A DNA stretch of 64,000 nucleotides, from NCBI GenBank assembly GCA_002507565.1, contig MOXJ01000010.1, forward strand, positions 1 to 64,000, given 5' to 3'. Shown here in pieces: positions 21,001 through 30,000 of the stretch. How positions within the stretch are numbered: the stretch's first letter is position 1; each line of letters begins with the position of its first letter. The position numbers are program-made. Source of the stretch: Candidatus Reconcilbacillus cellulovorans. Lineage in GTDB: Bacteria > Bacillota > Bacilli > Paenibacillales > Reconciliibacillaceae.

Positions 21001-24000
21001 GTCGAATGGCTGCGCAAGCTGCTGGCGGACGAGGCGCTGGACTATGACCGGTTGCTGGCGATGCTGGACGAGCGCGGGCCGGAACCGACCGGCATCTTGT
21101 ATTATCCATATTTGTCGGGAAGCGGAGCGCCGCAGCCCGATCCGGAGGCGAAGGCGGCGTTCGTCGGGCTGACGGCGAAGACGACGAAGGCGGATCTCGT
21201 GCTCGCCGTGCTGGAAGGGACGGCGTATCAACTCGAAAGCATCCGGCGCGCGGCGGAAAAAGCTGCTGGCGGTCCGATCGGCCGGCTGGTCGTCTCCGGC
21301 GGCGGAACGCGCAATCCGCACTGGATCCGAACGAAAGCCGACGTGTTGAACTGCGAGCTGGAGTTGATGCCGACGGCGGAGGCGACGCTGCTCGGCGCGG
21401 CGTTGGCGGCCGGAATTGGTGCGGAGGTGTTCGCGTCTGCGGAGGAGGCGGCGTCGTCGGTCCGCTCCGGCGGCGGAACCGTCGTTAGGCCCGACGCGCG
21501 TCGGCATGCGGTATACCGGCGTTTGTACGAAACAGGATACGAGCCGCTACGGGAGGCGATCGTGAGGTTTTCGCGCGCCGCGGCTGACGGTTGAGGCGGC
21601 TGGACAGCCCGGCGCCCTCGTGTTACGATGAAGACAGGCGCCGAACGGGTGTCCGCGGTTGAGGGATGAGGCGTTGCGTGCGATCGCCCGGCAGGGGAGG
21701 CGGAGCACGGCGAATGTCGATGACCGCGGGCTCAAAAGGGAAGCCGGTGCGAATCCGGCACGGTCCCGCCACTGTGAACGGGGAGTCCGCGCGCGTGGAA
21801 GGCCACTGTTTCCGGACGGAGACGGGAAGGCGGCGTCGCGGGCGACGATCCGTGAGTCAGGAGACCTGCCCGTTCGGTTTTCGGCATCGACCTACGCGGA
21901 TAGGGGATGTCGGCCGGGCCGTGGTCTATTCATGCCTTTGCCGCGCATCCGCCGGGGTGCGCTTTTTTTGTTGTCGATTCGGGAAATGCGGGGGGAGAAT
22001 CGGTCGTGAGGCGTAACGGATGGCGTGTTTGGGCGGTTGTGTTGTTGGCCGCGGCGCAGGTGATGACGGCTGTTTCGGCATATGCGCAAGCGGAACCGGT
22101 CGCTTCCGACGCTTCGGCTGCAGTGCCAAAAGGGGCGGTCGTGCAAGCGGATTATGGCGACCTCATGCGCGGCGCGGCGGATTTTCTGCTGGCGCAGGAT
22201 GCGCTGTCGGACTGGGGCGTGTTTGCCCTGGCGCGCGCCGGATTCGACGTGCCGTCGGGTGCGGTGGAGGCGCTGAAGCGAAGGGCTTCGGACGCCGAGG
22301 CGTTTCGGCTCCCGACGGACATCGAGCGCACGGCGCTGGCGCTGGCGGCGGTCGGCGAACACCCCGCCGGGGCGGGCAGTCTCGATCTTATTCGGATGAT
22401 CGCGACGCATGACCGGCTTGTGGACCAGGGGACGATGGCGGCGGTGTTCGCGCTGATCGCGCTGGACGCCGGACCGTACGACATACCCGGCGACGCGAAA
22501 TGGACGCGGCAGTCGCTCGTCGATTGGCTGCTGGCGCGGCAACGTCCCGACGGCGGCTGGGGATACGCCGAAGGGGCGGCTTCCAGTGTCGATGTGACGG
22601 CCGCGGCGTTGGTTGCGCTTGCACCGTACCGTTCGCAGCAAGCGGCGGCGAAGGCGGTCGAGCGGGGACTGGCGTTTTTGGCCGCGCAGCAGCAGGCCGA
22701 CGGCGGATTTGCGGAAAACGGCGGTTCAAGCGAAAGCGTCGCGCAGGTGCTCATCGCCCTTGCGGCTCTCGGTTTACCGGCCGATGATGCGCGGTTCGTC
22801 CGGACGAAAGGCGGGCTGGTCGACCGTCTGCTGTCGTTCCGCCGGGCCGACGGCGGGTTCGCGCACCTGGCTGGGGAACCGTCCGACGCGATGGCGACCG
22901 AACAGGCGCTGATGGCGCTCGCCGCGCTCGAACTTCAGAAACGAGGTGAAGCGCTTTACTACCGAATTCGGCCGCAAGTCGCGTTCCGGTTACGGGTCGA
23001 GGGGCCGTTCGGGCCGATCGTCGATCGGCAGGTGCGGGCGTTTTCGACGTTGGACGGTCTGAGCCGGCTACGCGAGGAAGGCACGCTGACCGTGGAGACG
23101 GAATCGACCGCCTACGGGCCGTACGTCCGGGCGATCAACGGAATCGAGGCGTCGGGACAGGACGGCTGGATGTTCAACGTGCGGCGGGAAGGCAGGTGGC
23201 TTTTTCCGGCCGAAGGGATGGCGAGCTATCCGATTCTGCGCGGCGATGAAGTCGTCGTGTACTACGGAGCATCGTCGCTGGTCGTGGCGGACGTCGAGGT
23301 GGAACCGGCCGAACCAAAAGCGGGGCAGCCGTTTTCGGTGCGGGTGACGGCGCAAGGGTACGATCCCGCCGACTGGCAATTGAAAACGCGTCCGGCCGCC
23401 GGCATCGTCGTCCGCGTCGGCGAAAGGACGGCGGTCGCGGACGAGTCGGGCGAGGCGCGATTCGATCCGGGTTTGCCGGCCGGCGTTCACGAGTTGGAGC
23501 TGACCGGTTATCGCAACGGCGGTTCGCCGGTTTACGTCCGCGACGTCCGACGGCTCGTGGTGAAGGCGGCGCCGGAGCAGACGGCGACTTTCGTGCGCTT
23601 GCGGGTCGAAGGCCCGAACGGCGTGCTTGCGGAAGGGGCGACCTCTGCGGACGACGCGCTTGAGGCGCTGGAGTTTGTGTTGCGGCGTGCGCAGGTACCG
23701 TATGAGATCAAGGCTTACGATTTCGGCAAAATGGTGACGTCGATCGGCGGTTACGCCGGCGGTGCGGACGCCTATTGGCTGTACGACGTCCGCCGCGGCG
23801 GCGCCTGGGTGCATCCGCAAGTCGGCCTGGAGCAGTTCCGTCCCGAAGCGGGCGACGAGATCGTCGTTTACTATGCGTCGGCGGATACGGTGCTGGTTGA
23901 TTCTGTCTCGATACGTCCCGACCTGCCGTCGCCCGGCGAGCCGTTCGCCGTGACGGTGACGCTGACGCGGCCGAACTGGGAAAAAGGTTCGTGGGACCGG

Positions 24001-27000: not shown

Positions 27001-30000
27001 CGCGGCCGGAGCTGCTCTTGCTCGACGAACCGGTTTCTCGACTTGATCCCGTATCGGCGGGGCGGTTCTGGGACGCGATCGCCCGTCTTCGCCGCGAGTA
27101 CGGCATTGCCGTCGTCTGCGCCGACCACCGGACGGAGCCGGCGTTTGCGATGGCGGACCGCGTCGTGTGCCTGGACGAAGGGCGCCTTCTGTGGGAAGAT
27201 TCGCCGAGGCGGGCGGCGTACCGGCTCTGGAGGTCGGACGACGTCCGTTTCTGCGGAATGGTGCCGGAGGCGGCGCGCGTCTGTCTGGAATTCGCCGAAG
27301 CCGCAGGTACGCCGTGGCGGCCGGAAGAAGCGGACCGGCTGCCGCTGTCGGTGCGCGAGGCGAAAGCGTGGCTGGCTTCGATGGCGAAAACGGACGACGC
27401 TGCGGAGTACGATGCCGCGGAAGACGGCGATGCGGAAAACGGTGCGGCGAAGGACGAAAGCGCGGAGGACGACGTCGTAGAGGACGGCACTGGTGTGTCT
27501 TTCCGCCGTGTCGGCGACGACTTCGGCGGCGTCGCGGCCGTGTGTCGGGACGTCTGGTTCGCTTACACGCCGGCGGACGATCCCGTCCTGCGCGGTCTCG
27601 ACCTGACGATCCGCCGGGGACAATGGCTTGCTCTGCTCGGCGGCAACGGTTCGGGCAAATCGACGCTGCTTCGCCTGATCGCCGGCTTCGAGCGACCGCT
27701 CCGCGGCGACGTCCGCGTCTACGGTCGCCCGCCGCACCGGTGGAAAGACGCCGAAAGGCCGTTTCTTGCGGGATATTTGTCCGCCGAACCGCGCGACTAT
27801 TTCGCGGGCGAAACGGTGAAAGACGATTTGCTGGCCGTCGCCCGGCGGGCGGGATGCGGCGTCGACGAGGCGATGCGTCTTGCGGACATTTTCGGCATTC
27901 GCCGGTTGTTGGATCGACATCCGCACGATCTGAGCGCAGGCGAGCGGCAGCAGGCGGCGATCGCGCTGTTGCTTCTGTTCCGGCCGCGCCTTCTGTTGCT
28001 CGACGAGCCGACGTTCGGCCTGGACGCCGGCGCGCGGCGGGTGCTCATCGACGTGTTGCGGGCGGCATGTCGGCTCGGCGTCGCCGTCGTCACCGCCACG
28101 CACGACCTGTCGTTCGCCGCTTCGGCCGCCGACAGGTGCGCCTTGTTGTTCGACGGCGACATTGCAGCGGAAGGCGAAACCGATCTGTTCTTCTCCGACA
28201 TGTTTTATTACGCGCCTGAGCGCGCGCGCATCATTCGCAATGTGGCGCGGCGGTCGACGTTCGGAAGTTCCGGGCGGGGCGGCGTAGCGAGTGTGCGGGA
28301 AGAGGAGATGCGGCGATGGTGGATCGCAAGCGGCGAGAACGCACAATAATCGTCTGGCTGATCGTCGTGGCGCTGTTCGTCGCGACGCTCGGCGTCTTCC
28401 CGATCGTCCGGAGCGGAAACGTCGCCGCCGTCAGTTGGGCGCTGCTCGTTGTCGCAACGGCGCTGTTTTACGCGCGTTTCGAACGAAGAAGCGTACCGGC
28501 GCGGGAGATGGCGCTGCTGGCCGCCCTCGCGGCGATCGCGGCCGTCGGGCGTATCCCGTTCGCCGCCCTGCCGAGCGTTCAGCCGACGACGTTCGTCGTC
28601 GTCACCGCCGGCATCGCGTTCGGCGCGGAAGCCGGCTTTGTCGTCGGCGCCGCGGCGGCGGTCGTCTCCAATCTGTTTCTCGGACAAGGATTCTGGACGC
28701 CGTGGCAAATGTTCGCTTGGGGACTGGCCGGCGCGACGGCGGGATGGCTGCGGCGGACGGGACTTTTTACAGGCCGGTTCGGCATGGCGGCGTTCGGGTT
28801 TGCGTGGGGATTTCTGTTCGGCTGGCTGATGAACCTTTACGTGGCGGCGGAAATGTGGGATGTCGGCGGGCCGAAGGGATTGGTCGCGCTGGCGGCGGCC
28901 AGTTTTTGGTTCGATCTCGCCCACGCTGCCACCAATGCGGTGCTGCTCGGCTTGTTCGGACGGGGATGGGTGCGGACGCTCGATCGAATCGGTCGTAAAT
29001 ATAAGATCGTTTCGGACTGACGGGACGGAGGGCGGCGCACGGTTCTTGCGGCGATACGACCGCTTTCCGCGCCGCCCTCTTCGTCGTCATTTCCGCATTT
29101 CGGACGTTATTTTTAAGGAATCGAAACCGGCGGCACCGCCGTCGCGCCCGTTTCCGGCGCAGGATAGACGAGCTCGGCTTTCGGCGCGAGCGTGTCGAGA
29201 TCGTGCGCCTGCAGCATCCGGTCGGACAGCGTATACAGCGTCGTGCCGACATACAAGATACGGCGTATCGCTTTGCCGTAGTCGTAACCGTACATGCCCG
29301 CTTTGGCGAGATCTTCGCCGCTCAAATGCGTGATTTTCCCGCGCAACCGGAATCCGTTGACCGGATCGATCCGGTACACGTATGCGCCCTGGAACACGAA
29401 CTCTCCGTAGGCCGGCATTCTGCGTGCGCCGTCGTTCGCCGACGGGTCGCGGATCTCCATCACCTGCACGGGAAACGCGAGCAGCCCTTTTTCCCGCGAG
29501 AACAGAAGCGCCTTGTGGTCGCGCAGCAGCTCGGAGTCGGTGCCGCGGTCGCCGATGATCGCCTTGAACTTTTCTTTTGGATGCTCGGGGTCGGTGACGT
29601 CGAACAGGGCGATTTTCATGCCCTGGTAAAACGCCATCGTTTCACCGGTCGTCTTGCCGCCCCACGTCTCGACCGGCAGTTCGATCGTGTCTTTGCCGAA
29701 ACCGATCAGTTGGTTTTCGTCATACGGGTGCAGGTAATCGCTGTAGCCCGGAATTTTGAGCTGACCGAGCACTTTCGGGTGTGTCGAATCGGACAGGTCG
29801 AGCGTAAAAAGCGGGTCGACTTTCCGGAACGTCACGAGATAGGCGCGCTTGCCCATGAAGCGGACGGAATAAATCCGTTCGCCGGGCGCGAGATTTTCCA
29901 GTTTGCCGACGACGGCAAGCTTTTCGTCGAGCACGTACAGGTTATTGCGCGACGTCAGCGCGTCGTTGCGCCACATGTCGCCGGCCGTCGTCGCGATGCG

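What a model noticed while it worked through the whole genome (the two positions that open the first line are those of the whole stretch)
21713..29020. S-layer-anchored bacterial transcobalamin feeding an ECF B12 importer
Behind a cobalamin riboswitch lie g00304 (signal peptide, alpha6/alpha6 barrel annotated 'prenyltransferase/squalene cyclase', two DUF4430 domains, SLH anchor), a single-DUF4430 exported protein g00305 and a full ECF transporter (g00306-308). I read g00304 as a true two-domain bacterial transcobalamin/intrinsic-factor homolog that traps B12 between its alpha and beta domains on the S-layer and passes it to the ECF S-component. If true, the 'animal' B12-carrier architecture exists as a widespread bacterial scavenger family, mis-annotated as terpene cyclases, and is a candidate ancestor of animal carriers and a thermostable B12 binder.
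Evidence so far: AF2 model of residues 37-430: pLDDT 91.7. Foldseek: the top 15 PDB hits are all transcobalamin, haptocorrin or intrinsic factor, E 1.5e-11 to 1.4e-8 over 419-465 columns; TC beta domain TMt 0.76. ESM Atlas hits 2 and 3 are transcobalamin II and I clusters, score 0.87, lead level. Homolog P0048 scores Pfam Cobalamin_bind E 1.2e-8; P0060 fuses the barrel to an ECF S-component. Cobalamin riboswitch on the same strand in 16 of 27 related loci scanned (6 of 33 not scanned; calls 58, 61, 62); ECF parts near in 13 of 33. The genome has B12 users (MetH, NrdJ, adenosyltransferase) but no B12 synthesis or BtuFCD in the tables. Paper searches for DUF4430+cobalamin, bacterial transcobalamin, CbrS/CbrT f [...]
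(Added by a program. Inside this text positions count along the whole contig: contig position 1 is position 1 of the stretch shown here. "Call 12" and the like, gene names such as g00115 and contig names such as C1 are that model's own, and its searches are not shown. The text may have been shortened before it was handed on; [...] marks where a part breaks off. The agent that wrote the report below was given it as the finding of a first reader that could run no searches.)

Follow-up and report, generated by a model that had tools for sequence, protein, structure and literature searches.

The report
B12 importer with transcobalamin-like surface binder
A vitamin-B12 riboswitch sits ahead of an ECF-type importer and a large secreted protein with wall-anchor domains and the same two kinds of domain as animal transcobalamin, which likely catches B12 outside the cell; this arrangement was predicted in print in 2007, so it is a new example rather than a new kind, and binding is still untested.

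Summary
A cobalamin riboswitch with a terminator precedes a 930-aa exported protein (alpha6/alpha6 barrel, two DUF4430 domains, SLH), a DUF4430 lipoprotein and an ECF transporter whose S component is closest to CbrT. A same-strand riboswitch lies upstream of the barrel gene in 25/29 Bacilli, 53/67 other Bacillota and 10/11 Thermoleophilia loci (chance about 0.1 and 1.2 for the first two sets). The genome uses B12, and I found no CobS or CbiC. Corrinoid scavenging is likely (0.85).

The novelty claim fails. Burroughs 2007 (PMC1796856) already described bacterial toroid + transcobalamin-C-domain surface proteins in CbiO/CbiQ operons, predicted B12 scavenging and proposed them as the source of animal transcobalamin. 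L. sakei lsa1836-1840 has the same parts and was linked to heme uptake. The beta domain is transcobalamin-like; the barrel alone matches terpene cyclases better, but lacks DxDD and matches transcobalamin in size. Alpha/beta clamping, hand-off and ancestry are untested.

Added here: the riboswitch counts, and that 35/72 carriers have the B12-synthesis marker CbiC. The scan noted this system before on four other DNAs.

The parts
21601..21629 (+). sigma-70-type promoter-like site with extended -10
   Evidence: 1 found, shuffle mean 0.0; consensus match only
21713..21887 (+). cobalamin riboswitch aptamer (RF00174)
   Evidence: 97.2 bits, E 5e-23; one of two in the genome, the other precedes metE
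21943..21970 (+). intrinsic-terminator-like hairpin plus T run; likely expression platform (transcription attenuation)
   Evidence: switching not shown
22006..24798 (+). 930-aa exported surface protein: signal peptide, barrel, DUF4430, Ig-like, DUF4430, Ig-like, 3 SLH
   Evidence: Ig-like spacers inferred from a CarboxypepD_reg hit (E 1e-5, below cut-off) and the repeated sequence
22162..22950 (+). alpha6/alpha6 barrel (about aa 53-315); no DxDD; family-conserved W70, T104, D196, T198, Q247, Q300
22990..23277 (+). beta1: DUF4430 / transcobalamin C-terminal (SLBB) domain, about 14 aa after the barrel
   Evidence: (5no0 TMt 0.80, rmsd 2.3 A)
23599..23889 (+). beta2: second DUF4430 domain
24181..24795 (+). 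three S-layer homology (SLH) repeats, wall anchor; limits approximate
   Evidence: E 8e-30, 3 stretches; Sap/SbsB SLH hits
24806..25600 (+). DUF4430 protein with Cys28, probable lipoprotein (CbrS-like; name inferred)
   Evidence: (E 1e-17)
25597..26538 (+). EcfT (CbiQ family)
26529..28349 (+). fused EcfA-A' ATPase
   Evidence: TIGR04520/04521 best, below their cut-offs
28316..29020 (+). ECF S component, CbrT-like
   Evidence: best PDB hit 6FNP (ECF-CbrT, identified), E 6e-13; next hit E 0.027

Best explanation
This is a five-gene operon behind a cobalamin riboswitch that likely imports vitamin B12 (corrinoids): an exported protein with SLH wall-anchor domains and a probable lipoprotein carry transcobalamin-type beta domains predicted to catch the vitamin outside the cell, and a CbrT-like ECF transporter would carry it in. 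Shown: riboswitch, gene set, domain content, fold matches and family-wide linkage. Inferred: with little B12 the terminator does not form and the operon is read; B12 binds first to a beta (DUF4430) domain, as in transcobalamin; a barrel closes over it, within one chain or between chains; the vitamin is passed inward, probably through the lipoprotein, to the S component, and ATP drives uptake for MetH, NrdJ and a B12 radical-SAM enzyme. The barrel is read as a non-catalytic binding domain of the cyclase/prenyltransferase fold, not as an enzyme.
For: Riboswitch with terminator at the head of the operon. Same-strand riboswitch upstream of the barrel gene: 25 of 29 Bacilli within 7 kb, chance 0.1; 53 of 67 other Bacillota within 10 kb, chance 1.2; 4 of 5 in family f7; 10 of 11 Thermoleophilia loci scanned. 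In 17 of 19 genomes with a single riboswitch it sits at this locus. ECF T/A/S beside the barrel in 10 of 10 loci read. S component closest to CbrT, which transports Cbl and Cbi and is not competed by hemin. Genome has MetH, NrdJ, a B12 radical-SAM protein and an adenosyltransferase; no CobS or CbiC found at 99.6% completeness; its one PF01497 binding protein looks siderophore-type. beta1 alone hits only TC in the PDB (5 of 5, best E 0.014) and keeps G360-P361-Y362 and W377. The isolated TC beta domain binds Cbl, and beta binds first (PMC5599065, PMC11107200). No DxDD in 28 of 28 barrels. Barrel fused to the S component in 80 Thermoleophilia loci. Family member P0219 passes the Cobalamin_bind cut-off in its barrel and is 32% identical to the window barrel. 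Of 50 VIA rows only IF, TC and HC have a barrel span under 300 residues, like the query.
Against: No binding or transport data. The only knock-out I found for this kind of operon (L. sakei) lowered heme uptake 5- to 8-fold at 5-40 uM. The barrel profile finds no TC/IF/HC among 49 PDB hits at E<=10. None of 28 barrels scored Cobalamin_bind in the listed families, 1 of 30 further proteins passes, and 0 of 401 genomes pass. Barrel-only Foldseek lists no TC in the top 50 ranks; VIA gives cyclases Z 21.8, IF 19.0, TC 17.9, HC 17.3, with glycosidases in between. The model is not in the closed TC geometry (rmsd about 22 A). The window barrel has Met where 25 of 28 relatives have Asn (QGxN motif). Two loci of genus g17 have the full operon without a cobalamin riboswitch. 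Direct barrel-then-beta order holds in only 73 of 150 top relatives.
Confidence: 0.85

Rival explanations
1. B12 uptake, but only the beta (DUF4430) domains bind; the barrel is a spacer, scaffold or docking domain and no alpha/beta clamp forms. A variant within the best explanation.
For: TC beta binds Cbl alone. The barrel is not TC-specific by sequence or fold rank. Linker about 14 aa and open model geometry. Domain order varies; the barrel occurs alone or fused to S.
Against: The invariant residues sit at the first turns of alternate helices, consistent with one conserved ligand face (face assignment inferred). TC domains also assemble only on Cbl, so an open apo model is expected. Barrel and DUF4430 co-occur in 139 of 150 top relatives.
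Confidence: 0.3
2. The operon imports heme (or heme as well as B12), as reported for L. sakei lsa1836-1840.
For: Same five parts in L. sakei; deletion lowered 57Fe-hemin uptake and complementation restored it. Riboswitch-less copies exist.
Against: Cobalamin riboswitch here and family-wide. Hemin does not compete on CbrT. This genome has ferrochelatase. No Fur-box-like site within 5 mismatches upstream of this or two riboswitch-less operons (consensus recalled). The L. sakei authors leave heme versus cobalamin open.
Confidence: 0.07
3. The barrel is an active secreted terpene cyclase, prenyltransferase or glycosidase-like enzyme, and the ECF alone imports B12.
For: Best sequence and fold hits are class II cyclases. 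The middle Asp of the cyclase motif is kept in 304 of 306 barrels. Single-barrel cyclases exist (6sbb, 8paj).
Against: DxDD absent in 28 of 28. Exported, wall-anchored, riboswitch-linked and fused to transporter subunits. Barrel about 80 residues shorter than the monodomain cyclases.
Confidence: 0.04
4. The operon imports cobalt or a corrinoid precursor for synthesis rather than finished B12.
For: 35 of 72 carrier genomes have CbiC; EcfT scores as CbiQ; CbrT also takes cobinamide.
Against: No CbiC or CobS found in this genome, so cobalt or cobinamide would be of little use. The S component is CbrT-like.
Confidence: 0.04

Closest known systems
[quoted passage not shown] 2007, PMC1796856; parts 1-4 of 6 read)
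   Same: Secreted alpha/alpha toroid + transcobalamin C-terminal domain fusions, Ig domains, a second SLBB paralog in the operon, CbiO/CbiQ neighbours, predicted B12 scavenging, proposed source of animal transcobalamin and intrinsic factor.
   Different: The main text does not mention riboswitches, SLH/S-layer, heme or squalene cyclases. It says carriers usually lack B12 synthesis, which I did not find for CbiC (35/72 against 127/329). Its supplements were not read.
Lactobacillus sakei lsa1836-1840 (bioRxiv 10.1101/864751; parts 2-3 of 6 and passages read)
   Same: S, fused A-A', T, a TC-beta-like exported protein and a TC-alpha-like exported protein; proposed capture and hand-off to S.
   Different: Alpha and beta on separate genes; tested substrate was heme; no riboswitch mentioned. 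I did not compare its sequences with the window's.
ECF-CbrT of L. delbrueckii (PDB 6FNP; Santos 2018, PMC5997447; passages read)
   Same: S component homologous (E 6e-13); gene cluster with cbrS; organisms use NrdJ and an adenosyltransferase.
   Different: Shares its ECF module with FolT2, whereas the window has a dedicated T and fused A-A'; no barrel protein described in the passages read.
Animal transcobalamin, intrinsic factor, haptocorrin (PF01122 + PF14478)
   Same: Barrel followed by a beta-grasp domain, secreted; beta domain TMt 0.80, rmsd 2.3 A; ESM features 0.91 to a TC1 cluster once cyclase and SLH families are skipped.
   Different: 13-18% identity; no cysteines in the window protein; extra Ig, beta and SLH domains; barrel keeps cyclase-like repeats; closed geometry not modelled.
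Class II terpene cyclases / prenyltransferase beta subunits
   Same: Barrel fold and repeats; middle Asp of the motif.
   Different: No DxDD, single short barrel, exported and wall-anchored.

Membership tests
Bacterial transcobalamin-like SLBB clade (Burroughs 2007) | TC-type beta-grasp domain with the inserted beta hairpin | tested here: met
Bacterial transcobalamin-like SLBB clade (Burroughs 2007) | fusion to an alpha/alpha toroid, signal peptide, surface-tethering domains | tested here: met
   (signal peptide from hydropathy and sequence, no predictor run)
Bacterial transcobalamin-like SLBB clade (Burroughs 2007) | operon with a second SLBB protein and CbiO/CbiQ-like genes | tested here: met
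Bacterial transcobalamin-like SLBB clade (Burroughs 2007) | host lacks key B12 synthesis enzymes | tested here: met
   this genome, two markers only: no CobS, no CbiC; not general in the family (35/72 have CbiC)
ECF-CbrT transporters | CbrT-type S component with T and A/A' subunits | tested here: met
ECF-CbrT transporters | ATP-dependent Cbl transport | not testable with these tools
   needs uptake assay
Transcobalamin/IF/HC family | PF01122 match of the alpha domain over cut-off | tested here: not met
   window protein: none; relative P0219 passes
Transcobalamin/IF/HC family | alpha6/alpha6 barrel followed by the beta domain | tested here: met
Transcobalamin/IF/HC family | barrel specifically closer to TC alpha than to other alpha6/alpha6 barrels | tested here: inconclusive
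   cyclases rank higher; size matches only IF/TC/HC; transitive link via P0219
Transcobalamin/IF/HC family | alpha-domain B12-contact residues (for example the TNYYQ motif of haptocorrin, PMC4350170) | not testable with these tools
   no call printed an alignment to a TC alpha domain
Transcobalamin/IF/HC family | B12 clamped between alpha and beta domains | not testable with these tools
   apo model open; no cobalamin ligand offered
Class II terpene cyclases | DxDD catalytic motif | tested here: not met
   0 of 28; site located by the alignment to SsDMS

The most novel reading that the evidence does not exclude
The bacterial barrel is a de-catalysed terpene-cyclase/prenyltransferase barrel turned into a corrinoid clamp: the living intermediate between class II cyclases and the animal transcobalamin alpha domain. 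It closes on B12 held by a DUF4430 domain and delivers it straight to CbrT, as the barrel-S fusions suggest, making this the first ECF system that depends on an external binding-protein relay; riboswitch-less copies may have shifted to heme.
Probability: 0.35. Interest if true: 0.62.

Novelty: new member of a known kind. Interest (0 to 1): 0.33.

Why it matters
If binding is confirmed, a family present in about a fifth of the Bacillota genomes searched (72 of 401) and labelled 'prenyltransferase/squalene cyclase' would be re-annotated as B12 capture proteins. That would settle a 2007 prediction on the origin of animal B12 carriers and show that ECF importers, thought to work without binding proteins, use a surface relay. 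The concrete open question is B12 versus heme: the one knock-out study I found points to heme, while the riboswitch counts point to B12. This single-chain, cysteine-free barrel+beta1 from a probably heat-tolerant organism is a convenient construct for that test. As a discovery it is modest, because the idea is in print.

Tried and rejected
1. A residue-level alignment of the barrel to TC alpha was not obtained: the barrel profile, the L038 barrel and P0219 gave no TC hit in the PDB sequences; a paper search for residue numbers found nothing relevant; the haptocorrin structure paper was not held; PMC6257451 passages gave no contact list.
2. No animal TC sequence came back from homolog searches, so no tree was built and direction of descent is untested.
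3. Complex prediction of barrel with S component was not available; no result either way.
The A1 search is inflated by SLH domains, so its 180/301 tally is not a family count.
5. PF01122 across 401 Bacillota gave 3 weak hits, none over cut-off; one is a family barrel.
6. The lipoprotein had no meaningful PDB sequence hit.
7. Folding of 21880-22010 was no better than shuffles (z 0.67), so the switch mechanism rests on the terminator match alone.
8. 'Only in B12 auxotrophs' rejected.
9. ATG 21907 rejected as start because it lies upstream of the terminator.
10. My two-barrel count is not used: split hits may inflate it.
11. The L. sakei locus itself was not retrieved.

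
Full report
Observation. Rfam finds a full cobalamin riboswitch at 21713-21887 (+), 97.2 bits. 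A promoter-like site (21601-21629) lies before it and a terminator-like hairpin with a T run (21943-21970) after it. The first gene therefore starts at GTG 22006 behind a G-rich RBS. Its 930-aa product has an N-terminal hydrophobic stretch, a barrel scoring Prenyltrans/SQHop, two DUF4430 domains and three SLH repeats. Four tightly packed genes follow: a DUF4430 protein with Cys28, EcfT, a fused EcfA-A' and an S component.

The genome. G000 is 99.6% complete and has two cobalamin riboswitches; the other precedes metE. It encodes MetH, NrdJ, a B12 radical-SAM protein and an adenosyltransferase. CobS and CbiC were not found (only these two markers were tested). Its single PF01497 binding protein scores with siderophore families and has two different permeases. 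Ferrochelatase is present. The S component's best PDB match is 6FNP, ECF-CbrT (E 6e-13), which transports Cbl and cobinamide and is not competed by hemin (PMC5997447, passages). The closest named relatives of the large protein are Paenibacillaceae.

The family. The barrel+beta1 query finds 1,269 clusters at E<=1e-30; a barrel-only profile hits 72 of 401 Bacillota genomes. I compared genome-wide riboswitch positions with barrel-gene positions by hand. In Bacilli, 25 of 29 genomes have a same-strand riboswitch within 7 kb upstream, chance 0.1. These 29 are of 36 genomes with listed barrel hits; three of the seven left out belong to genus g17, whose two tested members lack the riboswitch, so the fraction is somewhat flattered. 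In the other 67 hit genomes, all tested, 53 have one within 10 kb (45 within 7 kb), chance 1.2. This is a floor, as 50 matches were unlisted. In 17 of 19 genomes with a single riboswitch it is at this locus. Family f7 gave 4 of 5. Kin are not independent, so these are counts, not p-values. ECF T, A and S genes flank the barrel in 10 of 10 loci I picked and read. In Thermoleophilia the barrel is fused to the S component (80 loci found with such a query); DUF4430 genes lie upstream in the two loci where they were checked most fully, and a riboswitch in 10 of the 11 loci scanned. CbiC occurs in 35 of 72 carriers and 127 of 329 non-carriers, so the system is not confined to auxotrophs.

Is it transcobalamin-like? 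For the beta domain, yes. Alone it hits only TC among PDB sequences (5 of 5, best E 0.014) and keeps G360-P361-Y362 and W377; the model matches the TC beta structure at TMt 0.80, rmsd 2.3 A. The two-domain model (pLDDT 94.3) ranks TC/IF/HC first in Foldseek, with rmsd about 22 A. An open apo form is expected, since TC domains assemble only on Cbl (PMC5599065 passages; PMC11107200 section 8). For the barrel the case is mixed. Against: no TC among 49 PDB sequence hits of the profile; no TC in the top 50 Foldseek ranks of the barrel-only model; VIA Z 21.8 for cyclases against 19.0, 17.9 and 17.3 for IF, TC and HC, with glycosidases in between (similar); ESM neighbours are Prenyltrans/SQHop clusters, probably its own family. 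For: IF, TC and HC are the only VIA rows whose matched span is under 300 residues, like the 260-residue query; relative P0219 passes the Cobalamin_bind cut-off within its barrel and is 32% identical to the window barrel (1 of 30 tested); with cyclase and SLH families skipped, the Atlas gives TC clusters at 0.91 (lead level). The cyclase DxDD is absent in 28 of 28 barrels; the middle Asp is kept in 304 of 306. Invariant W, T, D, T, Q, Q residues sit at the starts of alternate helices, which I read as a conserved ligand face (inference). The window protein departs from the family at one such site (Met for Asn). Direct barrel-then-beta order occurs in 73 of 150 top relatives.

Mechanism. Most likely (0.85): B12-repressed corrinoid uptake. 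DUF4430 domains on the wall-anchored protein and the lipoprotein bind the vitamin, the barrel probably caps it, and CbrT-type S with its own T and A-A' imports it. The clamp and the hand-off are inferred; within this reading I give about one chance in three that only the beta domains bind. One unresolved point: TC binds with sub-picomolar affinity and CbrT with nanomolar affinity, so a bacterial clamp must be weaker or be opened for hand-off. Rivals are heme (0.07), an active enzyme (0.04) and cobalt or precursor uptake (0.04).

What is known. Burroughs et al. 2007 (PMC1796856; parts 1-4 of 6 read; supplements not read) state that bacterial surface proteins fuse the TC C-terminal domain to an alpha/alpha toroid at either end, carry Ig domains, lie in operons with a second paralog and CbiO/CbiQ genes, probably scavenge B12, and were probably transferred to animals. 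The paper never uses the term DUF4430 (it did not appear), which explains why such searches miss it. The L. sakei preprint (10.1101/864751; parts 2-3 of 6 and passages; supplements closed) describes the same five parts, reports reduced heme uptake on deletion and leaves heme versus cobalamin open. PMC4350170 (passages) equates DUF4430 with the TC C-terminal domain. Eight searches (listings) showed no binding study of a bacterial member and no count of the riboswitch link. Subscription papers are not covered, and Rodionov 2009 is known to me only through. Four earlier notes of this scan report the same system on other DNA, including the barrel-S fusion and a Patescibacteria form (unchecked AI notes).

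Verdict. Real, well supported as a B12-uptake operon, and a new member of a kind predicted in 2007. Interest 0.33.

Noticed in passing
window 32472-32680 (-) and ORF 31858-32469 (-): c-di-AMP riboswitch (79.6 bits) directly ahead of a small exported protein that looks like an NlpC/P60 cell-wall hydrolase by sequence; a usual pairing.
   Followed up: no
window 15325-19047 (-): 1240-aa ORF with a superfamily-1 helicase-like core and a C-terminal phospholipase-D-like motif (read from the translation); resembles defence-associated helicase-nuclease fusions.
   Followed up: no
window 29113-31614 (-): Secreted protein with a copper amine oxidase N-terminal domain and a Beta_propel (PF09826) domain, convergent on the operon.
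   Followed up: no
L001 (G000:C33) 2730-5569 (-): Second cobalamin riboswitch precedes B12-independent methionine synthase metE.
   Followed up: yes
L039 4592-10574 and L040 (genus g17): Complete beta-barrel / lipoprotein / T / A-A' / S operon with no cobalamin riboswitch and no Fur-box-like site, in genomes that carry a MetH-sized B12-binding protein. Candidates for a changed regulator or ligand.
   Followed up: partly
L049-L128, about 6001-7800 (+): Thermoleophilia encode the barrel fused behind the ECF S component, mostly under a cobalamin riboswitch, with DUF4430 genes upstream.
   Followed up: partly
control genome Lactococcus lactis: Has a DUF4430 hit but no cobalamin riboswitch and no B12-binding domain hit; a DUF4430 protein in an apparent non-user of B12 may bind something else.
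   Followed up: no
G068:C101:66015-67366 (-): Barrel match split over two frames and 14 kb from the nearest same-strand riboswitch; possibly a broken copy.
   Followed up: no
G525 and G620: 26 cobalamin riboswitch matches each in 2.3-2.9 Mb genomes, with 3-4 barrel genes.
   Followed up: no
P0013, P0014, P0150, P0221: Barrel-family proteins with dockerin domains, suggesting display on cellulosome-type scaffolds.
   Followed up: no
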